A DNA stretch of 64,000 nucleotides from assembly GCA_002633005.1 (NCBI GenBank), contig NMRA01000227.1:365863-429862 (forward strand). The letters are read 5' to 3'. The stretch's first letter is position 1, and every line of letters begins with the position of its first letter. Both the position numbers and the translations under genes were made by a program. Shown here piece after piece: positions 8,151-61,614 of the stretch. The notes under the pieces were generated by a model, which was not told where the DNA came from, did not search any database, and saw nothing but the letters and a program-made list of their open reading frames with translations. Source of the stretch: Phoronis australis (Eukaryota > Animalia > Phoronida).

Positions 8151-8553
8151 AGTTGGTGGTGGTGTAGTTGGTGGTGGTGTAGTTGGTGGGGGTGTAGTTG
8201 GTGGTGGTGTGGTTGGTGGTGGTGTGGTTGGTNNNNNNNNNNNNNNNNNNNNNNNNNNNNNNNNNNNNNNNNNNNNNNNNNNNNNNNNNNNNNNNNNNNN
8301 NNNNNNNNNNNNNNNNNNNNNNNNNNNNNNNNNNNNNNNNNNNNNNNNNNNNNNNNNNNNNNNNNNNNNNNNNNNNNNNNNNNNNNNNNNNNNNNNNNNN
8401 NNNNNNNNNNNNNNNNNNNNNNNNNNNNNNNNNNNNNNNNNNNNNNNNNNNNNNNNNNNNNNNNNNNNNNNNNNNNNNNNNNNNNNNNNNNNNNNNNNNN
8501 NNNNNGTTTGGTGGTGGTGTGGTTGGTGGTGGTGTGGTTAGTGGTGGTGTAGT
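8151..8553. repeat. 15-bp G-rich repeat spanning an assembly gap (N 8233-8505)
   Basis: GGTGGTGGTGTRGTT on both sides of the gap. Confidence 0.9.
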
Positions 8554-19483: not shown

Positions 19484-19648
19484 CCTCAACCCTTCACCCC
19501 CTTGATTTGGTTGTTGCTCAGCTCTTCTTTCTAACTCTTCCATGCGTTGTTGTTTCAGCTTCACCCCCACCGGGTCTTTAAGTCCTCTAGCCTCATCTTC
19601 ATGCTGTCGTTTGAGGGCAGCTTCTGCCTGTTGTTTCCTTCTAGTTTC
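19484..19648 (-). CDS. SVIP: SVIP exon 2 (VCP-interacting motif)
   Basis: acAG|ETRRKQQAEAALKR...GGEGLR|GTGAGT, 165 nt. Confidence 0.93.
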
Positions 19649-21868
19649 CTGTTATAACAAATCACGACAACACTTCATTTATCATGCCTTTAAAGAACAC
19701 GCTTAAAATCCCCAATTTCATATCAAAAACACAAAAACAACTGCACCAGTAAATCAGCTGTCAAATGAAAACACCCACCAACACTATCTGAAGATATATT
19801 AATTAGGTGATCTCGAGTTACGAGCACTTATTGGTCGATATATACTACAGAGAATTGGCCCAAACAATCCCAACATATAGTCATCCTCCACTGTATTCAG
19901 GGTGAAATGTCATCAGATATTGCAGCAACCTTTTCTGTGATTTATAGTATAATAAATAATGGCGAGGTGAAGTGTTTGTGGTGGTTGTGATTAGTTAGTA
20001 TTTGATCACGCTGTGTCTCTCTTCACTTTGCCGTGGGACATCATAAAGGAGTGCATATAGCACATGTTTGTTGCCTATTGGTGGACATGACTGACAGGCA
20101 CCGAGTATGTTCATACGTCACAATCATGTGCGTGGAGCTAAAAAACTTTTGTTTTTCTTTTCGTTTCTCGTTTTTTGGGATATTGAATTCGCGGTTGTGA
20201 TATTCAGTGCCATAGGGGAAAGTTTAACAACGGTGACAATTGTAGTCACTTCCCAGTTGTTAAAGCAAGACACATACACGGTGATTGCACTTACAAACCC
20301 ACATTTCATCACAAAAACTTTAGATTTTGACCACTTACCACCACAAAATGTGTCTCAAATTGCTCCCAGCTCAAAATAAATGTGATTTCTGGACTTGGGA
20401 AGCACTCTCAGTATATAGCTTGAGAACAGTGTCTGAAAGTTGACTTATCATGATGACACGTCATTTTATTCGCTGAGTGTGGTCTCGAGCAATAAAGAAC
20501 TTTTTAAAGTTCTTTGCAATACAAACTACTTATCATCTGAATAAGAAACAAGCTAAGACCAAATTGATACCAGTTGTCATCTAAATTGAAATTTATTTTT
20601 TCGAAGAACAGTGGGTTATACCCATTTGAATGATCACATCTAGGCTTTCACTATTCCAAGTCTCAGTGGACTTCAGACCGGTCCCTCATCTGTACTGCGT
20701 CTTAGTGTGGCTGGCTAATGGGTGATCTCCCTACAACCCTCTGTACGGTTCCATTTGTCCTTGAGCACACTGGCTGTAATTGCATTCACTCTTCAATTTC
20801 ATTGACTGAATGAAAAATGTTGACTGACGCCAGCAGTGTAAAAATGGTCATGTTGTCGATTTGGGCAACTGAACGAAGGACTGCTTGCAAAAACGTTTGG
20901 CTACAAGACTATTTGTTCGGATTGGGAGGAAATAAAGACATTGACGACCTTAGTCCTAAGGTGTACCTCTATGCACAAAAGGTACTTAAAATAATGTGAC
21001 TTTGATGGTTTAATCAGTGTGAGGCATAATTCGACGAAAAACTTCTGCCATATGAAGGCCCTAATGAAGCACCACCGTCTAAAACGTACTGTCTATACTG
21101 TGTCAAATGAGTAACAAAAACCCTTAACTGTATGACAAAACAAGAGCAACGCGGAGCGTTGAAATGCGCCCACGAATGCATTGCAAATGGTGTGCTTTTA
21201 GGATTATTTATTTGTATCACAAAAATGGCCACTAGATGGCGGAAAAACATACAATCTATCCAAAAACACGAATATGCCATATTTCAAAAAAATCTGTCAA
21301 CAAACTTCAGAGAAACAAAGGAAAACAGAATAAAATGAAATTGCCACTAGTGGGCACAGTGTCCGTTGGATCCGCCTAAAAGTCGTCGTCATCTGTTGTT
21401 ATCTTCATATAAAAACACTGTCTTACTAAATTTAGTAAAGATCCTGCAGTGGGTTTAGGCGATACAACTATGGGCGCAAAACAAAACTACCACTAGGAGG
21501 CGCCACAGTAGTCAGTCACCATCATCAAAGGTCATCTTCACACTGAGAACATATATGCCAATTGTCAAATGATTTGGTTGATAAAGGGGTGGACACCAAA
21601 AACAAGATTTGAAAACAGCAAAAATGGCAACTAGGTGGTGCAAAATACCTTGGTTCCACCCAAAAACAGGAAGATAGCGTCATCACACCAATAGATGTCT
21701 ATATTTAAAATTTTATGAAAATCTGTTGAGGACCTTTGAAGATACTGTGTCAAACATAAAAAAATTAAATTACAACTAGGGGGCACAGCAGTGGTCAGAT
21801 CTGTGTGAAAGTCGTCGTCATCCGTAGTCAACATCATATAAATACACTTGCTAAATTAAGTAAAGATC

Positions 21869-24565
21869 GGTTTGTCTTGGAATGAATGTGACCAAAACCG
21901 GCGATAAGTTATGCGAGACCTGCCAACGCTACAAAATAACTAAACAGCCGAAGAACAAAGACGTCCTCGCTTCGCTTGCGACACGCCCACTCGAACGAGT
22001 CCACACAGATGTCTGCGGGCCAGTGACCCCTACATCAAGAGAAGGTTACAAGTACATCGTTAATTTTGTAGATGAGTACTCCAGTATGCTGTTTGTTTAC
22101 TTCATGCGATCCAAAGACGAAACACATGTCGCACTCAAAAGCTTCATCGCTGACGTCGCACCAATGGGACGAATATCTGAGATACACAGCGACAATGGTG
22201 GCGAATAGGTCGGAGCCAATTTCCGTAAAGTGCTCATCGATAACGGCATAAAACAAACCACTACAGCGCCCCACACGCCATTGCAGAATGGTAAATCTGA
22301 ACGCTCTTGGCGCAGTCTGATGGATATGGCTCGTTGTTTGCGCGAAGACGGATCAATTCCGAAAAACCTCTGGTCATACGCTGTGAAAAACGCGCAGTAC
22401 CTGCGAAACAGAAGTTTTCAACAGAGAACAAAAACAACAGCTTACGAACTGTTCTGTGATCAAAAACCCGACATGCGACTCATACATGCATTTGGAACAT
22501 AGTGCACTGCATACATCGAGCGTCACAAGCAGAAATTCGACAACCCAATTAATAAAGGCTACTTCGTTCTGTGCAGGAATGGAAGGGTAATGACCTCGCG
22601 AAATGTCTTGTTTGGCAAACAAACGACACGTGACGCCAAACCAGACGGAGATGACACGCCCATCAAGCTGATAAAACCCGGTACATCAGAACCGACTGGC
22701 AGCCGGCACGACGAGACACAAACTCAGACACCAGATGTCAAGGAGGAGGAGCCAACTGCCCATGAGCGACCACGCCGAGAAACCAGACCGCCCAAATATT
22801 TAGACGATTATCATGTGTATATGTCTGCAACTGTGGACTATGCGCACAGGGCGATACATATGATACCGGAGACATATGCAGAAGCTATTAACTCACATGA
22901 TAGCGATAAATGGAAAACGGCTATGGACATTGAAATTGAAACTTTACAAGAAAACAACACATATGACCTTGTTGACCTGCCGGAAGGTAGAGCTGAAACA
23001 AAAGGTAGATGGGTTTACACCCTAAAACAGGGACGGACCCCAAATGACGTGCAATACAAAGCGCGTTACGTCGCGAAGGGATACTCACAAATCCCTGGGG
23101 TTGACTTCGACGAGACGTTCTCACCCACGACACGTCTCACATCAATCCGCATGCTACTGCAAAAAGCCGCCAATGAACAGTTGGAGCTACACCAGATGGA
23201 TGTCAAGGGCGCGTATCTAAATGCACCCATTGATAAAGACATCTACGTTGAACAGCCGCCCGGATACGAACAATCTGGCACGAACGGCAAACTCACATGT
23301 CACTTGAAGAAATCACTCTACGGATTACGTCAGAGCGGACGCAACTGGCATACGACCCTCACTGATTTCCTCAAGCACGCGGGATTTCGTGTGAGCGATA
23401 ACGACCCGTGCGTCTACGTTAACGACGACACAAACATGTATGTTTTGTTTTGGGTCGATGACATAATTTTGGCATGTGACAACACTGCATGCATTAAGCA
23501 TATGAAGGAACAACTAAGCGAACGCTTCCGAATGGACGACCGTGGACCCCTACACTGGTTCTTGGGAATAGATTTCTATCGTTTACCCGACGGCTCATAC
23601 ATGATGAGTCAAGAACGTTGTGTTGAGACGATACTCAAACGTTTTGACATGTACGAGTGCAAGCCTGCACTGACACCTGTAGACACTGGTGAGATACTTG
23701 CCAAATCATCAGACGAGGAACACGCTCAGTTTCTCAAACTAGGATTTCCCTACCGTCAAGCCGTGGGAAGTCTAGTTTATCTCGCGAATGCCACACGCCC
23801 GGACATCTCTTGGACATTGTCAAAATTGTCACAGTTCCTCGACAAAACTGGACCGGCACAGGTGACCGCTATAAAGCGCGTATTGCGATACCTGAAAGGG
23901 ACCAAAACGTTCACGCTTACTTTCAGAACAACGGATAGTCTGTTAACAGGATACTCCGACTCGGACTAGGCAGGAGACGTCGACGATCGTCGACCTACTT
24001 CCGGTTTTATCTTCACGCTCAGAAGTGCACCAATCTCTTGGAAAACTCGGAAACAGCCGACAGTCGCGTTGTCATCGTGCGAAGCCGAGTACATGGCACT
24101 CACTGAAGCCACTAAGGAACTGATGTATTTACGATGTTTGTGTTCAGCTTTCGGAATCCCTCAACCGGACACTACGGTTATTCACTGTGATAATGAAGGG
24201 ACTATCGCCCTCAGCAAGGAGTCACCGAAACAACATCAACGCACAAAACACATTGACGTGCGCTACCATTACATACGGAACAACGATTGTGTGAAGTTTC
24301 AGTATGTGAACACCAAAGACAATTTGGCTGATATTTTTACGAAACCGCTCTCGAAAGATGGACATTTGAGAGCCGTAATCGCGATCCAAGGGGCATGTTG
24401 ATTAGAATCGCTCCCATGACCAGACACTATTTATCATTACAGACTCATACATCACTGCTTAGCATGCGCAGTGTCTTTTCTCTGCCCTCCACGTTTCATA
24501 GTGTGTAGTTTGTAGACGTGTATTTTATAGCTCTCAATAAATCAGTTATGGATCGCAAATCAACA
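21869..24565 (+). mobile_element. Ty1/Copia LTR retrotransposon, 5'-truncated (INT-RT-RNase H plus 3' LTR), with premature stops
   Basis: INT: HTDVCGP, FVDEYS, SDNGGE, PLQNGKSER. RT: KARYVAKGYSQ, QMDVKGAYLN, KSLYGLRQSGRNW, FWVDD. RNase H: YSDSD, SSCEAEY, KHIDVRYH, ADIFTK. INT precedes RT (Copia order). In-frame TAG at 22206, 22500 and 23967. Confidence 0.96.
24396..24565 (+). repeat. Copia 3' LTR (170 bp)
   Basis: Purine tract AAGGGGCA, then TGTTGATT...AATCAACA (8-bp inverted ends); internal AATAAA; the host repeat resumes immediately after. Confidence 0.85.
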
Positions 24566-26654
24566 GCGAACGGTTTAGGAGATACAGTCATAGGTGCAAC
24601 AAAAACAAAACTGCCACTAGGAGGTGCCACAGTAGTCAAAATCGTCGGAAAATCATCGTCAACCGTTTTCTTCATAGTAAGCACATACACGCCAATTTTC
24701 ACAATCATCCTTTGAGCGGTTTGGTTGAAAGAGGGGTGGATGCAAAAAAACTCAAAAACAGTAAAAATGGCCACTAGGTGGCACAAACTACGTTGAATCC
24801 ATCTGAAAACGGGAGGATAGCGTCACCTCACTAATAGGTGCCTACATATTGAATTTCATGAAAATCCGTTAAGGACTTTTGAAGATACAAAGGTAAACGT
24901 AAAACAAATTGCCACTATGGGGCACACCGGTAGTCGAATCTGTTCAAAAGTCGTAGTCGTCCGTTGTTAACATCATATAAATACACTAACTAAATTTTGT
25001 AAAGATCCTGCAAACGGTTTAGGAGATAGAGCCATAAGCGCAAAAAAACCAAAACTGCCACTTGGAGGCGCCACAGTAGTCGAAATCGTCGGAAAATCAT
25101 CGTCAACCGTCCTCTTCATAGTAAGCACATACATGCCAATATTCACAATCATCCTTTCAGCGGTTTGGTTGATAAAGGGGTGGATGCAAAAGAACAGACT
25201 TGAAAACAGTAAAAATAGCCACTAGGTGGCGCACACTGCGTCGAATCCATCCGAAAACAAGAGGATAGCGTCATCTCACTAATGGGTGCCTACATACCAA
25301 ATTTCATGAAAATCCGTTCAGGACTTTTGAAGATACAAAGGTAAGCGTAAAAAACTAAAATTGCCACTAGGGGGCACACCGGTAGTCGGATCCGTCTGAA
25401 CGTTCGCTCATGGCGTTCCATTCATAAATGGAACATATAAGCCAAATTTCATGAACATACGTCAAAGGGTTTTGGATTTGGAGATAGAGCAGCGGACGGA
25501 CGCCGCTCAGACGGACGGATGGAGATGACAGCATAATGCGTCCACATAAGTAAATATGTGGGGGCATAAAAATGCTAGATGTTTTTGCTTGTGTTTTACA
25601 AGTGGGGTTAATTTAAAAGATTTATATTTGGTTGATGCTCATGGCCAAGGAAGTGATTAATTTTTAAATTTGGATTCAAGCAATATCAGCATATATGCGC
25701 TTTTCTCTTTTGGAGTTACTCTTGGAGTTAAAATTTTCACTTTAGCTAAGAATGGTTGCCCGCTCGAGGATCCTCAACTTTTCAGTCGTGCGATTCTCAA
25801 CTAAGTAATGGAGCACAAAGAAATTCACTCTTGTTTTATAGAAAATATTGGGCTGGGTCAGTATCAGGGCGGGGGAAATTAGGGCCGGGGAACATTGGGA
25901 TGGGGAACTTACATAACATTAAATCGTCGTGAGAGACCGTCCGAAGTTGGTATATAGTGCAACTCCGGACGGTCTGGGATGAACAGAAAACCACAGTTCT
26001 ACTGTGAGTCTACACCAATGTGATCCCTGTAAAGTCCTGCACGATCTACGTTATGTAGGTTTGGTAAACATCGCCGACGTGGGACATAGGGTTACTAGTA
26101 GTGGAACATAGAAATGGGCAAATATAAAAGTTAATGAAACAGTGAACTCAGTGGTGAGTGAATTTTTCAGTCAGTAACTGTATGATTGACTCTGGTCGTG
26201 GCAATTGCCGAGATCACCCAACCTGGGAATCGCGCCAGTTACACCCGATAAAACGAGTAAGCTTAATTGCTAACCATCTGGCTACGGTAGAGGCTCATAT
26301 GCATTCACCGGAAGCACGTCTAGCACACAGTGTCATAGACGCGTAACCGGCCCACATTTCGCCAAATTTCTTTGAGCGGCCGATTGCAAAAACGTCAAGC
26401 AAAGCCTAAACTTTTGATTGCAGTGTGGCGTGTAACTGAGTCAGAAAAGACAACTGATGTTCTTTACTCATGGGCGGTGCACCATAAGGGGCTGAGGAGG
26501 CTATAGCCTCCTCCCCCACTTTTTTCAGTGCCACGCCGCACATGATGGTCTATAGCCATAGGCGTTGCACCACAGCCACTGACGGCTGAGGCAGTGAGGG
26601 GCTTTAGTTTAGCCCCCCACTATTTTTCAGTGCTTCGCAGCACATGTTACTTAC

Positions 26655-26720
26655 AGGATCCGGCTGCGTGTCATCGTAATCATTACTTTCTCCCTGTAAA
26701 CACGGTAAGCACAAACCCAT
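26655..26720 (-). CDS. SVIP: SVIP exon 1
   Basis: MGLCLPCLQGESNDYDDTQPDP then donor GTAAGT. Confidence 0.92.
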
Positions 26721-27032: not shown

Positions 27033-28470
27033 GTACGTGGGTGTATCATTCCTAAGACAGTCCATCCTGCCGGTGGACGCGGTTGAACTCCAAGTGGTGT
27101 TGCTTTACTCTTGCTAACTTGCTGAGCGTCGTTACCGCTGCAATGTCTGCCCTAGCCTGCCAGCCAACTAGCTGTATAAAGACAAGCACGCCATTGTTAC
27201 TTGGCGAAATGTATTTCGCCAAGTATGTTGCCTTGCCATCAATTTTGTTTGTTTTTTGTTTGTTCGCACTCTACAGGTCGCATTTTTCTTCTGATTTTCA
27301 CACTCAGCCTCAAGTTCCGGAAGTCCTGGAAGCCTATTGTTTTTCGTCAAGATCGGATCCAAGATGGCGGCCATTTTGTTTTCAATTTTAGATTCAAACG
27401 CTCGTACGTAGAGGTTGTAAATTTTAGGTACACGGCTGAAAATAAGCACATATGTTGTACCGTACTTGTTCTACATTTGTGGTGAGAATCATTTATTTCC
27501 AGTGAAAGATGGCGGAAATATAGGCAATTGCGCATGCGCACCTCGATTATTCGGCAAAAAATATTTTCTCCTGTAGCTGGCACATTATAGAATCAATTTC
27601 TTTGAAATTTTCAGGTATTGGTTTTTTATGACGCGCTATTATTCAGACCTAAAAAAACGAAAGTTGCTGTCAAGATGACGGATCTGGCGCATGTTGACCC
27701 ATTTTCAGTCATGCTGGGGTGCCATTTTAAATAGGAAGTGAAAATGACATGAACTTTTGTATATGAATTCTCTAAGGCATACCCTTTTAAATGGCCTGTA
27801 ACAATTTTTTTCGTAGACTTACCGTTTTCGAGTTATCTGACTTTGAATTTCAAAAAAAATGCAAAATTTCAAATTTTCAAAAAGTTTACAGACTTTTGCA
27901 ATACTACCATGTTAGATAGAGTTTTAAATGGGCTTTGAGACGATATTTTCCATATTTTCTCTAGGACGTCTACTTTTTGAATTATTTGAGATTTTATGAT
28001 AGCGCTGTTCCTTTGTTGACCGGTCTTGCTGCACTGATGTTGATTTAGCTTCTATTGAAGAAGACAGTAGCCTATTTCTTACTGATTTCTGACATCTTTG
28101 CTAGTCATATGAATGTTATCGTGTAGTTCATAATCCCCACTATCATCATCATAATCATCACTGTCTTCGTCATCTCCATCGTCATCTTTTCGGTTAATTT
28201 CGCCAAGTGTCACTCCTCTGAGTGCTCTCATTTAAATAGTTACTAGTATGTACCAGGGATATATGTGCCCATAACAGTTAATATTCATGGTGGGGGGAGG
28301 TTATTTCTTCTTTCCCATGTCATGGTCATGGCCATTGTGTAATTGATGGAAGAGGGGAGGGAGTGGTCAAATAAACGGGTCTCTCTTCAAAATTGCTATA
28401 GACAACCAGTTTTCACTGAACAATGGCAATTGGGCAGTGNNNNNNNNNNNNNNNNNNNNNNNNNNNNNNN

Positions 28471-41854: not shown

Positions 41855-43032
41855 GTAAGCAAAAGTAGCGTTGAAAGTACGTAGTCATGTTTTGTGGATA
41901 ATTAATTTTTAAGTGACAGTTGTTGATTACACTTGTCACTTTGACATTTTTATGTCGTCCATCATTATCTTTTGTAGTCTGTCGATTTTCTCAAAAATTG
42001 TTTGACAGATTGTGATGAAGTTGCTCATAGGCTTATATGCCAGGGATACACTGGCACGGCTCAATTTTCAAACTGATTTGACTTCTGTGGCAACCCCTGT
42101 TGGATGTTTTATTAGTTTTCTGCAAGACATTCTTTGTCCGTCAGTTTTTGGCAAAATGAGTATCAATTTTGACAAAACATGATGACGTGGTGGATATGGG
42201 CCTACACCAGTTGATTTTTAATTGACTAACGTGAACCCCTGGTGAGCATTTTAGCTTCCGATAAGGGATTCCTTGTTCTTCAATTTTTGATGAAATGATT
42301 ACAAATTTTGCCAGAGCTAGATGCAAAGTTATGTGGTGGGAGTGCACTGGCATCATTTGATTTTCAGATGGTTTTGACCATTGCAGCCCCCTTTTAGCCC
42401 TTAAATTTTGTGTAAGGAATTCAATCTGTCAATTTGTTAGTTTTGATTTTTGCAAAAACCACTTGACGGATCATGATGAAATTTGGCACAAAGTTATGTG
42501 ACAGAGATGCATTGGTACCAGTTGATTTTGAGACAGATTCGACTATACTTTTTGACAAGAAATTCCTTGTATGTCAATTTTTTGATAAACGTCTTCATTC
42601 ACTCACCTTACCAAAAATTGACACAGCAGTCTTTGGAGTACATGCGGCGACACTAGTTGATTTTCAGATGGACTCGATATAACCCGTTGGCAATAAGTTG
42701 TAGTCATATATGACATATTTTGCTTTCTTCACCTCCTTTATGGACAGTTCACAATTACAGCCACGGTTGTATAAACTGTACACTGTTGGAAGGTAGGTGG
42801 TCTACGGTTTCTGCTAACATATGCTGTTAAGATCATAAAAAATGGCTATGCACTTTTTCACATAAAAAATACACTGAGAAGTGTTTAAAAGTTGTTTTAT
42901 TTTGTGTCGATGAACTTGTATTGTTGAACTTTAAGGCATTGTTTACTATTTCCTGAATAAATACTGACTTATGAAAGTAAAACTTTCTTCATCTGACTGT
43001 ATTGTTTCCTTTTTCTCCTCTGTTCTTCTCAG

Positions 43033-43139
43033 GCCCGTGTGCGCATGGTGCTGGCTTATCTCTTTGCCCAGTTGACTCTGTGGGCCAAAGGTCGACCAGG
43101 AGGACTCCTGGTGTTGGGTTCTGCCAACGTTGATGAAAG
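43033..43139 (+). CDS. NADSYN1: NADSYN1 exon 13
   Basis: [35 protein letters not shown]. Confidence 0.95.
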
Positions 43140-44029
43140 GTATTGATATAACTCCCTTGAGCTGATGCTCAGTATTGTGTTGTCTATTGGTCTGGACACA
43201 GACTCACTGTGGTAGTTTACTGAGTACTCCATGCAAGCATAAAGCTCTTTTATTGCAAGTACAACCTTTGTCCTGCCTGGAAACTGGTGGTTTTGCATTT
43301 TTGTTTGTTATTTAATTTATTGTAAATTTAGTTAGCAGTATGTTGAAGGGTGTCAGTTTGATGTCAAAATATGTTGAAGATTACTGTTTGATAAATGTCT
43401 GGCAGCATTGTTTACCTCTGATATAAATATTATGACGATGAAATGTCTGGCAGCATTGTATACCTCTGATATAAATATTATAATGATGAAATGTCCACAC
43501 GATCTCCTACTACATCACAAGAAGTCAACACTTTGTCAGCTGCAAGTGGGTGACTGCAACACAATTTTATTTGATTGGGGATAGGTTAAAATACATGCCT
43601 CTAAATGTCATTGATTGGGTCTGAGTTCTTTGTCATTTTCTTGTCCTTTGGGGTAGTATTGCACATATTCATGTAAAATGTTGCTCACACTGTCTGTTCT
43701 GTTGACATGCTGGCCTGTGATATGCAACCGCACATGTCAGGCATGGGGAAAGAGGGGAGATACTCTCATTCATTTTCAGTGTTTCAGTGGTTTTACATCA
43801 CTGCGTAAGTATAATAGATTTGAAAACGATTAATCTATAGTTTATTTATGTTTTAGTTTGACTTATCACTGCCATTTTATTATTTTCATTCACTAGACTC
43901 GCAAACACTAAATAGTTTATTTGGCGAAACAAAATTTTGCCAAGTATGTTGTATTTACAATTTTTTGACTTCCGCTTTGGTACCTATAAAACTGTATGCT
44001 TAATCACTGTTTGCGAAATTCAGAACATA

Positions 44030-44130
44030 CTGTATTCGTCCGCGTTACTGGCCAGGGCGCTTAAATTGGGAATCTAGAAAAATGGAGTGGGCGGTAAGCC
44101 GAGCATGGGCCGTAACCCGGACGAGTACGG
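44030..44130. mobile_element. 101-bp miniature relative of the 9987-12384 element
   Basis: TA|CTGTATTCGTCCGCGTTAC ... GTAACCCGGACGAGTACGG|TA; same GGGCGCTTAAATTGG and GGGCGGTAAGCCGAGCATGGG motifs. Confidence 0.75.
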
Positions 44131-44817
44131 TATGTTATAATTAATGAGAGGATTACCCTGTCAGTTTTAGACGACTTGCTGTGTGCCCCTTGTATGCTAT
44201 TTTTAAGGTGGCAATAATCCTGCATTCCGTTAAAGAAACTAAATTTTGATTTAGACTACTTATCACTTTAAAAGTTGTATAAAATCGTTCCTTGCTCAGG
44301 TGAGAAGTGATATTTGGTCTTCCAAAAACTGACAGTTCCTCAAATTCATTGTTGGTGAATAAAAATGACACACCATGACAAGCCAACTTGTAGAGCCTCA
44401 GTCTCAAGCAATAACAAACTGTCAGTTCTTTCCAAGGCCAGAAATAACACTTAGCTTGACTAAGGAACAATTTGAGACTGAGTTTTTAATGGTAAGTGGT
44501 CTCAATCATCAGTTGGCAAATTACTGTAAGTGATCTGGTTAGTGGAAATGTTGAAATAACCATCCTTGTTTGTGTATGTGCTGTATGCCACAATGCATGT
44601 GGTAGGCGCATAACTATGGTCTGTGCAGTATGTGGTGGGCGCTTATCCATGCTCTTCATTGCTCTTGTTTTTAATATTTACTTGCAGATAACTCTTTGTT
44701 ACCTTTTAGTTTTTTATTATTTTCGGTCATGGATTTTGTTAGCTTTACAGCAGAAACTGTTGTCTTTGGGAGTGATACTGGAATCCAGTAAGTCACTTGA
44801 TACCTGTTTTATTGCAG

Positions 44818-44949
44818 CCTGAGAGGTTACATGACTAAATACGATTGTTCAAGTGCCGATATCAACCCTATTGGTGGAATAAGTAAGACTGATCTTCGCA
44901 GCTTTGTCAAATACAGCATGAAGAAATTTGGCCTCACTGCCCTCAAAGA
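44818..44949 (+). CDS. NADSYN1: NADSYN1 exon 14
   Basis: [43 protein letters not shown]. Confidence 0.95.
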
Positions 44950-44956
44950 GTAAGAA

Positions 44957-45124
44957 ATGTTCACTGTCTTGCTGACCATAGATAGTGCAATGTTCACTGT
45001 CTTGCTGACCATAGATAGTGCAATGTTCACTGTCTTGCTGACCATAGATAGTGCAATGTTCACTGTCTTGCTGACCATACATAGTGCAATGTTCACTGTC
45101 TTGCTGACCATAGATAGTGCAATG
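44957..45124. repeat. 33-bp minisatellite x5 starting 7 nt after the exon 14 donor
   Basis: ATGTTCACTGTCTTGCTGACCATAGATAGTGCA. Confidence 0.92.
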
Positions 45125-46202
45125 AGTGACGTTTATGATCACTGGCAACTCATCCTGTGGTATTGACAACAAGACAACTAAACAAGCGTGTACAGTTACG
45201 AAACAGTGTACTACAGCTGCTAGCGTGTACAGTTACGAAACAGTGTACTACAGCTGCTGTAACTTTGTGAAAGTCTTCTACTGCTATGTCTATGGGTTTA
45301 ATATTCAAATCAAAATGGATGCCGAATGTATAATTATTTGCTTATCAGAAATGCCTATAGTCTTTTTTTAAAAGCTTTTTTTCATGTCATCCGGATTCTG
45401 ATGTCACGTTAATTTTGTTTTTTAGTAACCATGCAAAAAAATAAATCACTCGGTCAAGGCAGTTCCCTCCATCACACTATTGCACAAAGGTGCATTTAAA
45501 TTAAGGGGAAAGTTCATATTTTCAATACACGTTATCTGGGCAGACTTTAGGGTGTGCACTCTGAGTATGCTGACATGCAGATTGTGATTGCATTGATATA
45601 AACAAATGGCGTTGTTTTGCATTAAAAATGACTTGAATCACAGCAAAACATATCTTTCCCAAAATATTGATTATTCCTTTGTCCATGCGGAGCATCTCCT
45701 GAAAGTTTTTACAAATCTGCTCAACATTTTGGGTAAAAAAATTCTAGCTGACTGACCACACAAGTGATGGACAGAGCCTACTTCCAAGAATTATGTAGTG
45801 GAGGTACTCGTAAAATAAAACAATTATTGACTTTCACACTCAGTATATTTATTCTTGGACCCCAAAAATGTGATAATGACTTCGTCTCTACCTCGTTTAT
45901 TATCGCATTTTGGGGTCTGAAAACCAAAATATTGCCCTCTGTGAAAATCAATAATTGCATAAGAATGGTTCTAACCAGTCAATGTAATTTTATTAATTTT
46001 CACAGAATTTGTCACTGTGGTCTTGGCTGATACGCAGAAAATGCAAGAAAAATAGAGACTAGCTTCGTATACGAAGAAGCGGAATTTGCTTTGATGATAT
46101 AGAATGACACTGGGTTTTGATAGTGTTTGTATCTGTACGCAACTTGTCGTCCTTTTCAATTGCAATGTGATTTGACCCAAAAGTTTGTAATGTTTTTTCC
46201 AG

Positions 46203-46272
46203 CATCCTTGACATGCCTCCTACTGCTGAACTAGAACCACTCAAAGATGGACAAGTGGCTCAGACTGATGAG
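46203..46272 (+). CDS. NADSYN1: NADSYN1 exon 15
   Basis: ILDMPPTAELEPLKDGQVAQTDE. Confidence 0.95.
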
Positions 46273-47229
46273 GTATGATGTCATTGGACCGGTCTGATGC
46301 TCAGTTTTTATGTGCCCACATTCACGCGGGTGCACATTGCCGTCATCTCTGTCTGGGCATCTTTGTTTTGCTGCTGTATCTCCTGAACCTCTAGGAGAAT
46401 CGAAATGAGATTTGGCAGACTTGCTCTTTTGAACCTGACGACAGATGACATCAAGTTTTGAAATGATTTGACTTATTGCTGCGGTTGTGTCTCCTTTACA
46501 CTTTGCAGCATCTTTGTGAATTTGGAAAGTGTTTTCCTTTCTGTGTAATAACAGCCGACCATAAGTTGGAAAGATCTGACTTCCACTGTGCCCTGTAGGG
46601 GCAATTTTAGGTTATCTTCTTTATATTCGGAGTATTTGCATGAAATTTGGCATGTACAATAGCTTTTTATTGAGACAACAGCAACAATGCCTTTTCTTTG
46701 TTGGACGGATTTGACTTACTCTGTGCCACCTAGTGGCCATTTTTAATGTGTCCACATGTTCACATGGGGATTCAACTGCCAGTGTGCCCCCTAGTGGCAC
46801 TTTTAGTTTTATATGTTTGATTCTGTATTTGTCCAATTCCATGATGGATTCTCACTAAATAAGGTAAATATGTTTCTATTAAGAAGGTGACAAATAATTT
46901 TCAGTTTTGGCCGTATGCAACGTATTCTGCGTCATATAGTGGCCATTTTTATTATTTTTGAGTCTGTTTTTCAATGTTTGCCTCTATCTGCCAAACTGCT
47001 GGAAAGATCATTATGAAAATTTGCAGATGTGTTTCTGCTGAGGAGATGATAGCTGACATTTTAGAATCCTTGAATATTGGGCCACCCCTAGTGTCAATTT
47101 GTATGTTTCCACGGTTGTATTTCCTTAACTCTTCGCAAGGTATTTGTGAAATTTGACAAGTTTTTTTCTTATGATCGATGTGACTGCGTGCAACCATGAC
47201 TTTAGGATCTATCTGACTACCACTTTTAT

Positions 47230-48215
47230 TATTTTTATTTTTATTAATGTAATATTTACAATGAGGGTAGCCCCATCAGTTCACACTGCTTTTCATGGGG
47301 GCCCTCGGTAAAAAACGAACAGATAGTAAGACAAAAACAGAATTACACAATGAAAGACAAATTTAAGTAATAAGCAAAGAATAAGAAGTTAACATGGAAA
47401 GACTGATGAAGCAAAATAAAAATAAAATATGATAAATAAAAGATAAAGAAATTAAGACAAGGTAATTAACTAAAAATAAAATAAAAATATAAATATAAAA
47501 AATTAAAACAGACAATAAATAATTAATAAAAGTAAGACATTATATAAATAACAAATGAATAAACATGCAATTTAGACACTACATGGAGTTAAATCTATTT
47601 CTTATAATTCTTTTAAAGGTTAGAAAGGATGATGTAGATTTGGCATCTGCAGGGAGAGAGTTCCATAAAAAGGGCCCGCTGTAGGAAAATGATTTTTTCC
47701 CAGTCTCGCTTCTGCGTTTAGGAAGATTGAAATCAGATGATGATAAGGACCTAGTATTGTAGCGATTAGTAGTCATCTTAAACTTAGTACATAAGTAAGA
47801 TGGGACAAGGCCTTTAAAACATTTGTTCATACAACAAGCAGATAGGAATTGATGTCTTGTGTGAATTTTCATTATACCAGTCTCATTATGAAGGTTTTTG
47901 ATACTAATATCTCTAACACCAGCTCCCAGAATAATCCGGGCAGCCCTATTTTGGATAACCTGGATGGTTTTCATACCGTTGTCTGATGCAACACCCCACA
48001 CCGGGAGGCAATAATCTAGGTGAGGTTGAATGATAGCATTGAAAAGGGTTTTCAGTGTTGCTCTGTTAACAAATTTACTAATGCGTTTCAATACGCCAAT
48101 TTTCTTAGACACCTTTTTCGAGATATAATCAACGTGGTGAGACAATTTAAGATTTTGATCATATATAAGTCCCAGATATTTGTGCCATGTTGTAGCGATT
48201 TTAGTTTTTTACATT
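47230..48215 (-). mobile_element. 5'-truncated LINE (CR1/L2 group): C-terminus of ORF2 plus 3' UTR
   Basis: ORF 47579-48145: KVSKKIGVLKR, IIQPHLDYCLPVW, IQNRAARII, SFSYSGPFLWNSLP; KYLGLI upstream; A-rich tail. Confidence 0.88.
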
Positions 48216-49395
48216 CGCTGCTGTATGTTCAGGGATGCTTGATGATTTTTCATGAAATTTGGCATATAGATTTCTGTTATGGAGCCTACAGCGCCTTTCC
48301 ATTTTTTAATGGATTCTGCCATACGTTGTGGCCATCCGTCAAGCTGCTATGATGGTCACTATGAGAATTGCTTCATGTGTTCTTCTGACAACAGCATAAC
48401 TGACGTTAATTTTTCAATGGGTCCAACTACTGTAGCACACCTTGGTGACATGTTATTACATCTGCTGTTGTATCTCCTAAACCTGTGCCTGCTCTTTATT
48501 CTTATTTATATGTGGACGCATATTGCCGTCATGTCTGTCTGGGCATCCGCCGTCTGCAGCTTTATCTCCTAAACCCCTCACAAGATCTTGATGAGATTTG
48601 GCAGATGTGTTCCTATGAAGGTGACGACGAATTTTGAAGGCCTCCGACTACCCCTGTGCCCCCTAGTGGCAATTTTAGTTTTTTATGTTCACCTCTGTAT
48701 CTTAGTTAGATGACGATATCCTCTGGTTTTTAGATTGATTTGCTACCTAGTGGCCATTTTTACCGTTTTCAAGTTTGTTTTTTGGCATCCTCCCCTGTAT
48801 CATCCAAACCGCTTTAGGGATGATTGGGAAAATTGGCATATACCTTCTTACTGTGAAGTGAGTGGCTGACGATGTTTTTCCGACGACTTCAACTACTATG
48901 GCGCCTCCTGGTGGCAGTTTTGTTTGTTTTTCGCGCACATGGCTGCATCTCCTAAACGCTCAACAAGATCTTTATTAAATTTTTCAAGTCTATTTATTTA
49001 GCTGACGATGATTTTACAACCTCGACTAATGTGGCGCCACCCAGTGGCAGTTTTATTACACCCATGGCTGTATCTCCTAAACCCTCTGCAGGATCTTTTT
49101 ATTTATACGAAGTTGTCAACGAACGACAACAACTTTCAGACAGATCCAACAAACACTGTGCCCCCTGGTGGCAATTTCATTGTTTTCCGCTTTCCTCTGT
49201 TTCTATGAAGCTGCTTGATGGATTTTTATGAAAGTTGGTAAATAGCTGAAACAATGACATTTTCCTGTTTTCGGATGGATTCGACATATTTTGCGCCATC
49301 TAGTTCTCATTTTTTACTGTTTCCTAGTCTGTTTTTGGCATCCTCCGCTCTATCAACCAAACCACAACAAGGATGATTGTGAAAATTGTCATATA

Positions 49396-52188
49396 CCGTA
49401 TTCACCCTAATAAGCGCCCATGCCAATATAAGCGCCCCCCCATGCTGAAGTAATCGCCCAGTCCATGAACACCGCCGTATATGCGAAAAATGCCTTACCT
49501 ACAGTTTCAAAATTCTACAGTAGCGTCTTCAATTTATCAATAAGATCCGACAGTCCTGAAAAATCATTATGCGTGGAAGACCACGAGCCTGACCGCTATG
49601 TCGGTATTTACCCGTGACTATACAATGCACACCTAGATCGTTACATCGCATTTACTCTGGCAAATGAACACTGATGACATGCACGCGCTCGCTCACTCAC
49701 ACACGCAGACGAACTTCAAACAAACATCACGTGGCAATAATGTGCGTTCGTCCAGAGATTTTTCTTGTTTTGCGGAATACGATCTAGCGCAGATTTGGAC
49801 TTAATTATGCGCCCACATATTTATATGTGGACGCATTATGCCGTCATCTCTGTCCGTCCGTCCGTCCGGGCGGTGTCCGTCCGGCGTCCGGCGTCCGCGG
49901 CTCTATCTCCAAAACCCTTTGACATACGTTCATGAAATTTGGCACATATGTTCCATTTATGAATGGGACGGCATGTGCGAACTTTCGGACGGATCCGACT
50001 ACCGGTGTGCCCCCTAGTGGCAATTTTAGTTTTTTACGCTTACCTTTGTATCTTCAAAAGTCCTGAACGGATTTTCATGAAATTTGGTATGTAGGCACCT
50101 AGTAGTGAGATGACGCTATCCTGCCGTTTTCGGATGGATTCGACATAGTTTGCGCCACCTAGTGGCCATTTTTACTGTTTTCGAGTCTGTTTTTGTGCTT
50201 CCACCCCTCTATCAACCAAACCGCTCAAAGGATGATTGTGAAAATTGGCATGTATGTGCTTACTATGTAGAGGACGGTTGACGATGATTTTCCGACGATT
50301 TCGACTACTGTGGCGCCTCCTAGTGGCATTTTTTTTTTTTTGCGCCTATGGCTGTATCTCCTAAACCGTTCGCAGGATCTTTACGAAATTGTGTAAGTAT
50401 ATTTATATGATGTTAACAACGGAAGATGACGACTTTTGGACGGATCCGACTACCGGTGTGCCCCCTAGTGGCAATTTTAATTTTTTTACGCTTACCTTTG
50501 TATCTTCACAAGTCCTTATTGGATTTTCATGAAATTTGGTATGTAGGCACCTATTAGTGAGATGACGCTATCCTCCCGTTTTCAGATGGATTCGACATAG
50601 TTTGCGCCACCTAGTGGCCATTTTTAGTGTTTTCGAGTCTGTTTTTGTGCGTCCACCCCTCTATCAACCAAACCGCTCAAAGGATGATTGTGAAAATTGG
50701 CATGTATATGCTTACTATGTAGAGGATGGTTGACGATGATTTTCCGACGATTTCGACTACTGTGGCGCCTCCTAGTGGCAGTTTTGTTTTTTTGCGCCTA
50801 TGGCTGTATCTCCTAAACCGTTCGCAGGATCTTTACAAATTGTGTAAGTATATTTATATGATGTTAACAACGGAAGATGACGACTTTTGGTCGGATCCGA
50901 CTACCGGTGTGCCCCCTAGTGGCAATTTTAGTTTTTTACGCTTACCTTTGTATCTTCAAAAGTATTGAACGGATTTTCATGAAATTTGGTATGTAGGCAC
51001 CTATTAGTGAGATGACGCTATCCTACTGTTTTCAGATGGATTCGACGTAGTTTGCGCCACCTAGTGGCCATTTTTACTGTTTTCGAGTCTGTATTTTTGC
51101 GTCCACCCCTCTATCAACCAAACCGCTCAAAGGATGATTGTGAAAATTGGCGTGTATGTGCTTACTATAAGGAAGACAGCTGACAATGATTTTCAGACGA
51201 TTTGGACTACTGTGGCGCCTCCTAGTGGCATTTTGGTTTTTTTGCGCCCATGGCTGTATCTCCCAAACCGTTTGCAGGATCTTTACTAAATTTAGCAAGT
51301 GTATTTATGTGATGTTGACAACGGACGATGACGACTTTAGGATGATTCTGATTACCGGTATGCCTCTAGTGGCAATTTTAGTATTTGCCTCTAGTGGCAA
51401 TTTTAGTATTTTACATTGACCTCTGTATTTTCATAGGTCTTCAGGTGTATACTTTGTGTTACTTCGTGACTGTGAAGGAAAAGTTCCAAGTAGAAATTTG
51501 TTTCTGGCATTCTAATGCTGTGCTAATCTCGTATGTTGGTAAATTTGTTTTTAATTCTATGTTTCTGTGGTGCTTTAAGCAACTGGTGTATAGGATGTGC
51601 TTGTATTATGAAGATTACTCACATTTTGCCCCTAGCCTATTGAGGAGACAAGGACCATGCCTTTCCATTTTGCAAAGTATGCCCTCTACTGGCCACTTTA
51701 TGGTACCAATAAACAACCCTAGAAGGATACCGTATGCGGTGCAATTGTGGGCGCATTTCAACGCTCCGCGTTGCTCTTGTTTTTATTATGCAGTTAATTC
51801 CGACTCCACAGGAACTTGAAAATGTTAGGGACATTATTATGAAAACTTAAGGAGGACTTCATATTTTTTGTTGAGTCGAAACTATATTTTTACTCAAGAA
51901 TTCAAGTTGACCTTTTAGCAGTCGTGAGGCAGTGACGCATCATTGGGCGAGTTTTCGCACTGGGATTTTCTGAAAAATGCTCATAATTTAACAACAAAGT
52001 TTGCCACTGCAATATTGTAGAAACTCGTAGGTTGCAGATGCGTCACAGAGTGTAAATTTTATGAATTCTAGCTTACGATTTCACCTGTTTCGGAGACCAG
52101 GTTTCAACCACTTTTGGGCTATAATAAGCACCCCCTTCCTGAAGCAAATTTTTCTAAGCGCCCTGGGCGCTTATTAGGGCAAATACGG
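49396..52188. mobile_element. Pogo/Tc2-like TA-target MITE inserted in a HINE and itself containing a HINE
   Basis: TA|CCGTATTCACCCTAATAAGCGCCCA ... TGGGCGCTTATTAGGGCAAATACGG|TA. Confidence 0.85.
49801..51784 (+). mobile_element. Youngest HINE copy, with three near-identical 451-bp units
   Basis: 5' TTATGCGCCCACATATTTATATGTGGACGCAT hairpin, (GTCC)n, unit starts GGATCCGACTACCGG at 49991/50442/50893; 3' GTGGGCGCATTTCAACGCTCCGCGTTGCTCTTGTTTTT. Confidence 0.85.
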
Positions 52189-52776
52189 TATGCTCTTATT
52201 GTGAATAGGACGATTGACGATTATTTTCTGATGACTTCATCTACTGTGGCCCATTCTAGTTGCAATTATTTTTTGTGCTCCTAGCCTCCTAGTGGCAATT
52301 TAATTTTTTTTCTGTTTTCCTCACTGCAGGTTTTTATGAAATTTGGTGAATAGCCTTGATGGCATATAGCAAACTTCGGATGGATTCCACATATTTTGCG
52401 CCATCTAGTGGCCATTTTTATGATGCAAATAAATACCCCTATGAGCACGCCGTTTCCGGAGCATTCGTGGGCGTATTTCAACACTCCACATTGCTCTTGT
52501 CATTTAACTTGTCAAGTAATTTTCTAATGACACCATCCCGTTTTTGGACGAATTCGTCATATTCTGTGCCATCTAGTGGCCATTTTTACGATACTGATAA
52601 GGGCCCCTGAAAGAATACCCTTTGCGATACAGTCGTGGGCATTTATCAATGCTCTGCGTCGCTTTTGTTTATTTTGTTTATGGTTTTTAGCCACTGAATT
52701 AATCAGAATTGACAATACTTTTTGCATTGTTTAGAAATATTAATTTCACTGTGCTAAGTATTAAAGTGTATTACAG

Positions 52777-52905
52777 CAAGACATGGGGATGACGTACGAG
52801 GAGTTGTCTGTATATGGGAGACTGAGGAAACAGTTACTGTGCGGTCCATACAGTATGTTTAACAAGCTGGTGCATATTTGGAGGGACAGGTGCACACCTG
52901 CTCAG
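52777..52905 (+). CDS. NADSYN1: NADSYN1 exon 16
   Basis: [43 protein letters not shown]. Confidence 0.95.
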
Positions 52906-53112
52906 GTGAGATAACCAGATGACAGTTATTTACTACCAAAATGCTCATTTTCCTTGACAATCTCATTCTTTACCACATATTTCAACATGGCAATACTCAA
53001 CTACTACAGATTTTGTTATGGTAAAATCAATTTAGGACACAATATGGCAGACACAGCAAATTTTGTTTTTTCATTTTGTTCATCTAAGATAAATGGCACC
53101 AAGTTAACGGTT

Positions 53113-53802
53113 TATCATATTCAGGGCCTGCACTATACCTACCATACCTACCATAAGACAATATTATATTCAGGGCCTGCACTATACCTACCATACCTAC
53201 CATAAGACAATATTATATTCAAGGCCTGCACTATACCTACCATACCTACCATGAGACAATATCATATTCAAGGCCTGCACTATACCTACCATACCTACCA
53301 TGAGACAATATCATATTCAAGGCCTGCACTATACCTACCATACCTACCATGAGACAATATCATATTCAAGGCCTGCACTATACCTACCATACCTACCATG
53401 AGACAATATCATATTCAAGGCCTGCACTATACCTACCATACCTACCATGAGACAATATCATATTCAAGGCCTGCACTATACCTACCATACCTACCATGAG
53501 ACAATATCATATTCAAGGCCTGCACTATACCTACCATACCTACCATGAGACAATATCATATTCAAGGCCTGCACTATACCTACCATACCTACCATGAGAC
53601 AATATCATATTCAAGGCCTGCACTATACCTACCATACCTACCATGAGACAATATCATATTCAAGGCCTGCACTATACCTACCATACCTACCATGAGACAA
53701 TATCATATTCAAGGCCTGCACTATACCTACCATACCTACCGTGAGACAATATCATATTCAAGGCCTGCACTATACCTACCATACCTACCATGAGACAATA
53801 TC
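53113..53802. repeat. 49-bp minisatellite, about 14 copies
   Basis: ATATTCAAGGCCTGCACTATACCTACCATACCTACCATGAGACAATATC. Confidence 0.95.
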
Positions 53803-54529
53803 TTGGAAAACTCGCTATTTACAACAATGGCGCCCCTTAGTGGCAGTTTTATTTTTTCTCATCCGCGACTTCATCTCCCATGAAACCTCTTGCAGGATCT
53901 TTTTTAATTTGACTGGTGTATTTCTAGGAATCTGACAGTAGGAGATGGCAACTTTTGGATAAATCCAGTTACAGTTTAAACCCCCTACATTTACTTGCAT
54001 TGCTCAATTTAGTATGAATGTTTGAAATAGTTACCATATCTTTGTATCTGTGCTGTATGTGGTGCACATGGTTGATGGATATCAATACTTCATGTTGCTG
54101 ATTTTTGATGCTAAAACTTTTAATGACTTATAGTTTACATAATTATCAGAATAAGATGTCCAAATGTAAACCATTCTATTCAGTAAAATTTTGTTCTTTG
54201 AAATGATACCAAATTTTGTAGAATTGTTTTTGGATTGTGGAAAATGTTTGAGGAAATTTATGCGGAACACTTTTTGGGTGGTATCATTATAGATTTCTTG
54301 TGCTACTATGATATTTTATATTATGTCTAACTAACTAGTCAGTAATCACTGAGAGCTGTTACTGATTTAGACCATATACTTTAAACAAATAGCAAAGGAT
54401 TTTAGAACAATAGTCGAACATTTCAGCATCACTTTGTAAGACAAAAAATAGTTTACACTCTATTAAAAATATTAAATAACCTTGTTAAACATTCTGATGT
54501 TTCCAGTGTTGAGACTCCTCTCATTTCAG

Positions 54530-61572: not shown

Positions 61573-61614
61573 ATAATGCGTCCACATATAAATATGTGGG
61601 CGCATAATAAAAAA
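61573..61614 (-). mobile_element. Isolated HINE 5'-terminal hairpin
   Basis: Reverse complement TTATGCGCCCACATATTTATATGTGGACGCATTAT is identical to the start of the 49801 copy. Confidence 0.7.

What the first reader, a model, noticed from the sequence alone, without database searches (positions are those of the whole stretch)
49801..51784. A Helentron-type element carries arrays of near-consensus CTCF motifs at ~150-bp spacing
Seen: the 451-bp internal unit consists of three diverged ~150-bp subunits (spacing 145+161+145). The most recognisable shared part of the subunits is a CCTAGTGG core, at 50013, 50158, 50319, 50464 and onward. On the other strand these read TGCCACTAGGGGGCAC, TGGCCACTAGGTGGCGC and TGCCACTAGGAGGCGC, all co-oriented. 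Knowledge: the bilaterian CTCF core is about CCASYAGRKGGCRC, and HINE/DINE-1 elements are known to amplify internal tandem repeats. Inference: this is a rolling-circle vehicle spreading homotypic, nucleosome-scale clusters of insulator sites. The motif persists in old diverged copies while flanks decay, which hints at constraint.
Basis: partly seen in the sequence, partly recalled or inferred. Interest (0 to 1): 0.8.

Follow-up and report, generated by a model that had tools for sequence, protein, structure and literature searches.

The report
Rolling-circle transposon spreading CTCF-like site arrays
An abundant, non-coding jumping gene of the rolling-circle (Helentron) type in a marine invertebrate carries an internal repeat in which every ~150-base unit holds a close match to the docking sequence of the genome-folding protein CTCF; the match has likely been kept because it helps the element itself, while binding and any insulator role for the host are untested.

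Summary
49803-51784 is a complete non-autonomous Helentron (HINE): 11-bp subTIRs, 5' inverted repeat, GTCC microsatellite, 3.1 copies of a 451-bp unit and a 3' hairpin. It lies in an intron of NAD synthetase, in a host that is likely a lophotrochozoan. Nine co-oriented cores sit 144-161 bp apart; six match the CTCF consensus 14/14 and three match 13/14. The window has 28 hits against 0.24 expected.

The core is the best-kept block between the three ~60%-identical subunit types (12 of 14 columns invariant against ~35%). In old copies it carries 0.64 of the expected changes. After insertion it is not clearly protected: across thousands of reads from many copies, subunit B's core varies as much as its flanks, and its CpG decays. 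The constraint therefore likely acts on the active element lineage, not on host insulators. The ~150-bp spacing is normal for HINEs and is not evidence.

Unexpected: all 7-8 in-gene insertions lie sense to their host genes, and RNA reads are 96-97% one strand. CTCF presence in this species and binding are untested. Transposon-borne CTCF sites are known; I did not find this HINE array form in print.

The parts
49803..51784 (+). Whole non-autonomous Helentron (HINE), ~1.98 kb, no coding capacity; T-rich ends, exact termini uncertain by a few bases
   Evidence: no ORF over 145 aa in it; no Rfam match
49807..49817 (+). 5' subterminal inverted repeat (11 bp, perfect complement of the 3' subTIR)
49826..49836 (+). 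5' inverted repeat pairing with the 5' subTIR (hairpin z = -3.72, 0 of 200 shuffles)
49851..49898 (+). Eroded (GTCC)n microsatellite typical of HINE left modules
   Evidence: definition in PMC7492417
49981..51386 (+). Central array: 3.1 copies of a 451-bp higher-order unit = subunits A (145) + B (161) + C (145), 57-64% identical to each other
50007..50020 (-). CTCF-like core, type A (14/14); repeated at 50458-50471 and 50909-50922
50152..50165 (-). CTCF-like core, type B (14/14); repeated at 50604-50617 and 51054-51067
50313..50326 (-). CTCF-like core, type C (13/14); repeated at 50765-50778 and 51215-51228
51361..51411 (+). 25-bp local duplication of a damaged type-A core at the array edge
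51679..51692 (-). Terminal degenerate core (13/14); intact in the older 3' ends at 21229, 52398 and 52566
51746..51756 (+). 3' subTIR
51759..51773 (+). 3' palindrome (6-bp stem, 3-nt loop), identical in the copy at 21147-21161
49396..52188 (.). TA-flanked terminal-inverted-repeat element (28-bp arms) inside which the focal HINE lies
   Evidence: (I2)
48502..52503 (+). Older HINE of the same family, split at a TA by the TIR element
46308..48486 (+). Old HINE copy (~66% identity), apparently split by a LINE-like fragment
21137..25569 (-). HINE copy in SVIP intron 1; 5' part 89% identical to the focal copy, 3' part resuming in register after a copia fragment
52526..52672 (+). Extra HINE 3' end (tandem 3' module or short insertion)
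53817..53949 (+). HINE remnant in the next NADSYN1 intron
41989..42681 (+). Faint HINE remnants (E 0.005-0.006) in another NADSYN1 intron; a faint 3' end at 44631-44676 (E 0.02)
46204..52908 (+). Host context: NADSYN1 exons at ~46204-46272 and ~52780-52908 bracket the intron holding the focal element
19484..26720 (-). Host context: SVIP gene (start codon 26720, exon 2 from ~19648), head-to-head with NADSYN1
   Evidence: (Pfam SVIP E 3.3e-9)

Best explanation
This is a non-autonomous Helentron (HINE), likely copied by the rolling-circle enzyme of an autonomous partner, whose internal ~150-bp units each carry a CTCF-consensus core that is predicted to bind CTCF and has likely been kept by selection on the active element rather than on the host. 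Steps: (1) shown: HINE termini, a three-subunit higher-order array, one core per subunit, many diverged copies. (2) Inferred from family knowledge: a Rep/helicase acting in trans recognises the subTIRs and 3' hairpin and inserts copies at T-rich sites without target duplication. (3) Inferred: an ancestral monomer carried the core, then triplicated and diverged to ~60% identity while the core stayed put. (4) Inferred: CTCF zinc fingers 3-7 bind the core. Position 2-3 is CpA in all subunit types, so the methylation-sensitive position cannot be CpG-methylated. Occupied arrays would exclude nucleosomes (125-142 bp between footprints) and keep donor copies accessible, so lineages with intact cores out-replicate others. 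(5) Shown in part: once inserted, most copies decay about neutrally, cores included, so most are not maintained host insulators. (6) Shown locally, suggested genome-wide: copies lie sense to host genes, so the cores point back toward the host promoter.
For: HINE anatomy meets the published features. Core 12 of 14 columns invariant among subunit types against ~35% elsewhere (binomial 1.4e-4, not corrected for picking the best block); the two variable columns are the degenerate K and R positions. In 7 old segments the core has 62 changes against 97.4 expected from base-matched non-CpG flanks (O/E 0.64; 46 of 20,000 random window triples as low). Between adjacent 451-bp units: 0 of 84 core against 53 of 816 flank differences. 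None of the 40 shown (of 363) variant rows falls in a core, and contig depth peaks on cores A and B. [quoted passage not shown] The host gene groups with protostomes beside molluscs (SH-aLRT 89-91), and CTCF orthologues are reported in molluscs and annelids (PMC10658182; PMC7854359). Hairpin folding does not explain the core (z -1.26, -0.97, -0.12). Oyster HINE arrays lack it, so it is not a general transposition signal.
Against: There are no binding data, and CTCF was not shown in this species. The benefit to the element is inferred only. In old copies, fixed core positions are not better kept than degenerate ones (32 of 179 against 30 of 133, p 0.32) and not significantly better than A/T flanks before base-matching (p 0.13). 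Only motif A ranks in the top 1.3% of windows; B and C rank at 24% and 20%, and a non-motif block is equally kept (O/E 0.42). The best-kept windows straddle the core's first half plus the adjacent T-run, which a CTCF core does not require. In the many-copy sample the B core shows 4-18% variants at positions 6, 8, 10, 11, 12 and 13. Type C has carried a non-consensus base in every lineage seen. Copies are not independent samples, and local alignment favours conserved blocks. CpG o/e falls from 1.03 (young) to 0.73 and 0.47 (old), so the arrays were not kept unmethylated. By eye the 5' flank is an A-run with no upstream CTCF motif (upstream consensus recalled).
Confidence: 0.55

Rival explanations
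1. Host domestication: inserted arrays act as clustered CTCF insulators or loop anchors, and host selection keeps the cores in individual old copies.
For: Cores are better kept than base-matched flanks in old copies (O/E 0.64); several 66%-identical copies still hold perfect cores (46723, 46784, 52398, 52566). Repeat-borne CTCF binding is documented in lamprey (489 of 586 copies of hAT-Tip100 #274 under peaks; PMC5504073). The uniform orientation to genes could reflect host selection.
Against: The B core varies as much as its flanks across many copies (6 of 14 against 28 of 85 positions with listed variants). 32 of 179 fixed positions are mutated in old copies, and fixed positions are no better kept than degenerate ones. 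Seven or more insertions inside two housekeeping genes is far more than boundaries need. The old-copy signal is also what conservation between subfamily masters gives.
Confidence: 0.15
2. The kept box is bound by something other than CTCF, or serves repeat maintenance or rolling-circle template handling. The conserved unit is the core's first half plus the T-run, and the CTCF likeness is partly coincidence.
For: The most conserved 14-nt windows are TAGTGGCCATTTTT and CCTAGTGGCAATTT (core half plus T-run), and core positions 1-7 (O/E 0.52) are better kept than 8-14 (0.76). Other boxes are also kept. Oyster HINE monomers also share relatively conserved segments (PMC7492417).
Against: A 14/14 match arises in 4 of 200,000 shuffled monomers. 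Positions 10-12 and 14 are also invariant among subunit types, and the variable columns are the degenerate ones. There is no significant hairpin. The box is absent from oyster HINE arrays.
Confidence: 0.2
3. Neutral passenger: a host CTCF site was captured, or arose by chance, in the founding monomer and was amplified by array duplication and transposition with no selection on it. Its apparent conservation comes from CpG poverty, gene conversion between subunits and alignment bias.
For: Post-insertion variation in the B core equals that in the flanks. C>T and G>A dominate all changes, and core positions 1-11 hold no CpG. A genome-scale scan examines very many repeat families, so a 2e-5 to 5e-4 match can occur.
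Against: The base-matched, CpG-excluded tests still show a deficit of changes. A 9-bp invariant run among subunits that are ~60% identical compares with a next-longest run of 4. 0 of 84 against 53 of 816 differences between units.
Confidence: 0.1

Closest known systems
HINE / DINE-1 non-autonomous Helentrons, especially Cg_HINE of Crassostrea gigas and pearl (PMC4067079 passages; PMC7492417 parts 1-2 of 7, passages and supplement searches)
   Same: 5' subTIR + IR + GTCC microsatellite, short central satellite-like array of ~140-180-bp monomers, 3' subTIR + palindrome, T-rich ends, insertion into other repeats and introns
   Different: Three-subunit 451-bp higher-order unit with a CTCF-consensus core in every monomer. 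The oyster arrays hold CTAGTGG 11 and CCACTAG 54 times in 3.37 million characters (long cells cut), i.e. no such box. The subTIR sequence was not found in the oyster supplement.
Transposon-borne CTCF sites: lamprey hAT-Tip100 #274 (PMC5504073 passages), zebrafish non-autonomous DNA transposons (PMC7182764 passages), rodent B2 SINEs (review PMC7786948 passages)
   Same: A lineage-specific repeat disperses CTCF motifs; the lamprey motif likewise avoids CpG
   Different: Those are vertebrate, ChIP-verified and, as far as the passages read show, not described as tandem arrays in a rolling-circle element; here up to 10 co-oriented cores per copy, in an invertebrate, with binding untested. I could not see the family names in the zebrafish Table S3.
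Drosophila miranda ISX/ISXR helitrons carrying MSL recognition motifs (PMC4384637 passages)
   Same: A rolling-circle non-autonomous element spreads a binding motif for a chromatin complex
   Different: One MSL motif per copy, 77 copies, with host selection shown; here a tandem CTCF-like array, very many copies, and little sign of per-copy host selection
CTCF-rich tandem repeats DXZ4 / ICCE / FIRRE (PMC6125249 abstract)
   Same: Tandem organisation in which short CTCF motifs are what is conserved; ICCE is intronic
   Different: Single fixed mammalian loci, not mobile and not dispersed
C. elegans Helitron minisatellite-derived PATCs (bioRxiv 10.64898/2026.08.08.743475 passages)
   Same: Helitron internal repeats in introns proposed as chromatin barriers
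   Different: They work by 10-bp mechanical periodicity in a species without CTCF, not by a protein-binding motif

Membership tests
HINE (non-autonomous Helentron) | 11-15-bp subterminal inverted repeats, a few nt from the 5' end and ~38-60 nt from the 3' end | tested here: met
   11-bp perfect pair 49807-49817 / 51746-51756; definition
HINE (non-autonomous Helentron) | Short inverted repeat close to and complementary to the 5' subTIR | tested here: met
   49826-49836; hairpin z -3.72
HINE (non-autonomous Helentron) | 3' palindrome / stem-loop after the 3' subTIR | tested here: met
   51759-51773, identical in a second copy; predicted in the MFE fold, although the 61-nt window is not unusually stable (z -0.92)
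HINE (non-autonomous Helentron) | GTCC-type microsatellite and central tandem repeats; no coding capacity | tested here: met
HINE (non-autonomous Helentron) | Insertion at TT / T-rich site without target duplication | tested here: inconclusive
   Both ends are T-rich and no duplication is evident, but no empty site was available
HINE (non-autonomous Helentron) | Autonomous Rep/helicase/endonuclease partner with the same termini | not testable with these tools
   No whole genome held; pattern scans of metagenome and prokaryote collections found 0
CTCF binding site | Match to the 12-15-bp core read by ZF3-7 | tested here: met
CTCF binding site | Upstream (ZF9-11) motif (optional) | tested here: not met
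   5' flanks are A-runs, judged by eye against a recalled consensus
CTCF binding site | Species encodes CTCF | tested here: inconclusive
   Host placed among protostomes beside molluscs (no cnidarian, echinoderm, brachiopod or chiton named rows); CTCF reported in molluscs and annelids and lost in flatworms; gene not searched
CTCF binding site | Occupancy in vitro or in vivo | not testable with these tools
   no ChIP, ATAC or EMSA data
Domesticated insulator | Motif under purifying selection in inserted copies | tested here: inconclusive
   Deficit of changes in old copies, but none in the many-copy sample of subunit B; fixed positions not better kept than degenerate ones
Domesticated insulator | Enhancer-blocking, barrier or loop-anchor activity | not testable with these tools
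   none

The most novel reading that the evidence does not exclude
This HINE family is a CTCF-recruiting rolling-circle element that has seeded a lophotrochozoan genome with a very large number of occupied, clustered CTCF sites. These are almost all placed in introns pointing back at the host promoter, either because Helentrons integrate into the displaced non-template strand of transcribed genes or because the opposite CTCF orientation is selected against. It would then be the main author of that genome's CTCF landscape and a natural test of whether CTCF polarity matters outside vertebrates.
Probability: 0.2. Interest if true: 0.82.

Novelty: new variant of a known kind. Interest (0 to 1): 0.52.

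Why it matters
Whether CTCF organises spiralian genomes, and whether its orientation matters there, is open (PMC10658182 passages). A high-copy family with strong, medium and decayed cores at many loci, all in a fixed orientation, is a ready-made series for testing binding, methylation and insulation in one CUT&Tag or Micro-C experiment. It also suggests why a HINE keeps an internal array: recruiting a host chromatin protein for its own benefit. The strong sense bias to host genes bears on how Helentrons choose targets. If binding fails, it is an ordinary HINE with one conserved box.

Tried and rejected
No whole genome was held, so neither a genome-wide copy alignment nor a CTCF gene search was possible. 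Pattern scans for related copies found 0 in metagenome contigs and 0 in prokaryote genome contigs. Rfam: 0 matches. The SVIP exon search gave no hit, and the second NADSYN1 exon search returned mostly fish at ~50% identity; neither refined the host. The cluster look-up left the nearest tree neighbour unnamed. Both trees are quick trees without bootstrap or an AU test. Core as ssDNA hairpin: rejected; only type B has a 5-bp stem and the z-scores are not significant. Spacing as evidence for nucleosome design: rejected. T-run availability as the cause of the sense bias: too weak (T4 runs 264:208 in the NADSYN1 span, 35:33 in the SVIP intron). Copy number from summed contig depth: not used, since the tool says it is no copy number. 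No RNA holder was listed among indexed runs. Earlier scan notes held nothing on this family. Preference for consensus-permitted changes at degenerate positions (20 of 30, counted by hand) is not decisive, because most are transitions.

Full report
Observation. The nine CCTAGTGG cores, their 144-161-bp spacing and the three quoted strings are exactly as reported. The array spans 49981-51386 with a 450-bp period and 3.1 copies. Its units are 92-97% identical, and its three subunit types 57-64%. Six cores match CCASYAGRKGGCRS 14/14 and three match 13/14. The window holds 28 matches with at most one mismatch against 0.24 expected, 27 of them in copies of this family. Because all cores descend from one monomer, the fair chance figure is per monomer: 4 of 200,000 shuffles for an exact match and 10 of 20,000 for one mismatch.

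What it is. The element has an 11-bp perfect subTIR pair (49807-49817, 51746-51756), a 5' inverted repeat forming a hairpin (z -3.72), an eroded GTCC microsatellite, the central array, and a 3' palindrome at 51759-51773. These are the features that define HINEs in PMC4067079 (passages) and PMC7492417 (parts 1-2 of 7). It encodes nothing recognisable. It lies inside a TA-flanked TIR element (49396-52188) that itself splits an older HINE (48502-52503). All of this is in one intron of the glutamine-dependent NAD synthetase gene. The family is abundant: 27,781 of 2,622,197 contigs of run X1 lay on one 511-bp stretch at 80% identity or more, and contigs of two other organism labels lay on it too (148 and 140). 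No copy number can be read from this. No empty site or autonomous partner could be checked.

Host. A 618-column NADSYN1 peptide falls among protostomes, beside bivalves and gastropods, in two quick trees (SH-aLRT 89-91, unstarred). No cnidarian, echinoderm, brachiopod or chiton named rows were included. An earlier scan note called this genome probably echinoderm (untested). CTCF orthologues are reported in molluscs and annelids and are absent in flatworms (PMC10658182 passages); a CTCF motif is the commonest in open chromatin of one annelid (PMC7854359 passages). CTCF in this species is therefore likely but not shown.

Is the motif constrained? At depth, yes. Among subunit types, 12 of 14 core columns are invariant against ~35% elsewhere (binomial 1.4e-4, uncorrected). 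The two variable columns are the degenerate K and R positions, and the core holds the longest invariant run (9, next 4). Between adjacent 451-bp units, 0 of 84 core and 53 of 816 flank positions differ. Between the two young copies, 2 of 76 non-CpG core and 48 of 784 non-CpG flank positions differ. In 7 old segments (66-80% identity) the cores carry 62 changes against 97.4 expected from base-matched non-CpG flanks; 46 of 20,000 random window triples are as low. None of the 40 shown (of 363) variant rows lies in a core.

Against this: fixed core positions are not better kept than degenerate ones (32 of 179 against 30 of 133). Motifs B and C rank only at the 24th and 20th percentile of windows, and a non-motif block is as well kept. 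In one search, 7,107 contigs and 7,887 and 6,752 RNA reads were laid on subunit B, and 40 of 77 variant rows were shown. The core has rows at 6 of 14 positions and the flanks at 28 of 85. The core's CpG shows 18% and 11.5% transitions, like flanking CpGs (7-17%). The two stretches without rows are the core's first half with the T-run, and the non-motif block. C12 methylation does not block CTCF (PMC10484683 section 13), so this does not refute binding, but it shows no protection. CpG o/e drops from 1.03 in the young copy to 0.73 and 0.47 in old ones. Copies share ancestry and local alignment favours conserved blocks, so the p-values are optimistic. The pattern fits constraint on the active lineage with mostly neutral decay after insertion.

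Spacing and structure. Oyster HINE monomers are 138-181 bp, and their arrays lack this core (CTAGTGG 11, CCACTAG 54 in 3.37 million characters, long cells cut). The ~150-bp period is thus a HINE norm, and the core is not a general transposition signal. The 125-142 bp between 19-bp footprints cannot hold a 147-bp nucleosome (length from general knowledge), so full occupancy would give a nucleosome-depleted tract. The cores do not form significant hairpins.

SVIP lies on the minus strand, head-to-head with NADSYN1. The copy in SVIP's intron is on minus, and all copies and remnants inside NADSYN1 are on plus. That makes 7-8 insertions by my grouping of the hits, two of them faint and several nested, all sense to the host gene, with none antisense. 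One 38-bp 5' end at 61572-61609 is on minus, beyond the last NADSYN1 exon found. T-run availability is only about 1.2:1. The copia fragment and the LINE-like fragment in the same introns lie antisense. In two RNA runs of one study, 97% and 96% of depth has the first mate on minus, from reads with more than 100 starts and mostly 80-95% identity, i.e. many copies. In the usual stranded library this means RNA of the element's plus strand. The library type is unrecorded and I laid no exon control. Self-transcription, targeting of the non-template strand, and selection against the A-rich antisense orientation all remain open. In this orientation the cores point back toward the host promoter.

Mechanism. 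Best reading (0.55): a HINE mobilised in trans whose monomers likely recruit CTCF, keeping donor copies accessible, with selection acting on the element. Rivals: another binder or repeat-maintenance box (0.2), host-domesticated insulators (0.15), neutral passenger (0.1). Shown: anatomy, motif, deep conservation, decay, local orientation. Inferred: mobilisation, binding, benefit.

Known kinds and novelty. Repeat-borne CTCF sites are established in mammals (PMC7786948 passages), lamprey (PMC5504073 passages) and zebrafish (PMC7182764 passages). The zebrafish Table S3 names were not visible in the two supplement files searched, and I recall, untested, HINE-like fish repeats with similar cores, so prior art may exist there. 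Helitrons spreading a chromatin-complex motif are known from D. miranda (PMC4384637 passages), CTCF-rich tandem repeats from DXZ4/ICCE (PMC6125249 abstract), and Helitron-derived barriers from C. elegans (bioRxiv 10.64898/2026.08.08.743475 passages; its supplements are closed). No paper describing a Helentron/HINE with CTCF cores appeared in searches (40 of 1,065 listed) and 74, and none on a sense bias of Helentrons in one search. The library lacks most subscription journals, and Dfam/Repbase could not be searched. Verdict: new variant of a known kind, interest 0.52.

Noticed in passing
window 21137-25569 (-), 41989-53949 (+); RNA runs X16, X17 on 50122-50230: All 7-8 in-gene HINE insertions or remnants are sense to their host gene, and RNA reads of the family are 96-97% one strand; this may reflect Helentron targeting of transcribed DNA, selection, or self-transcription.
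   Followed up: partly
window 19484-26720 (-) and 28987-54709 (+): SVIP and NADSYN1 are head-to-head; a YY1-like motif (recalled consensus) lies at 27361-27374 in the shared promoter region.
   Followed up: partly
window 49396-52188: TA-flanked non-autonomous TIR element with 28-bp arms (Tc1/mariner-Tc2 style by recall, untested), nested between two HINE generations; a similar arm lies at 44022-44063.
   Followed up: partly
window 21864-24566: Copia-type LTR retrotransposon fragment (integrase, RT) interrupts a HINE whose two halves resume in register.
   Followed up: partly
window 47582-48208 (-) and 2404-3030 (-): LINE-like fragments; the first (no Pfam RT hit) appears to split the old HINE at 46308-48486, the second matches RVT_1.
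   Followed up: no
window 50208-50223 and repeats: A non-CTCF block (TATCAACCAAACCG) in subunit B is as conserved as the cores, in old copies and in reads; unexplained.
   Followed up: partly
window 61572-61609 (-): Isolated 38-bp HINE 5' hairpin, 97% identical to the focal 5' end, with no body attached.
   Followed up: no
whole window: About 25 unrelated minisatellites (periods 14-65 bp), most of them in introns, and a ~300-base assembly gap near 8230-8510.
   Followed up: no
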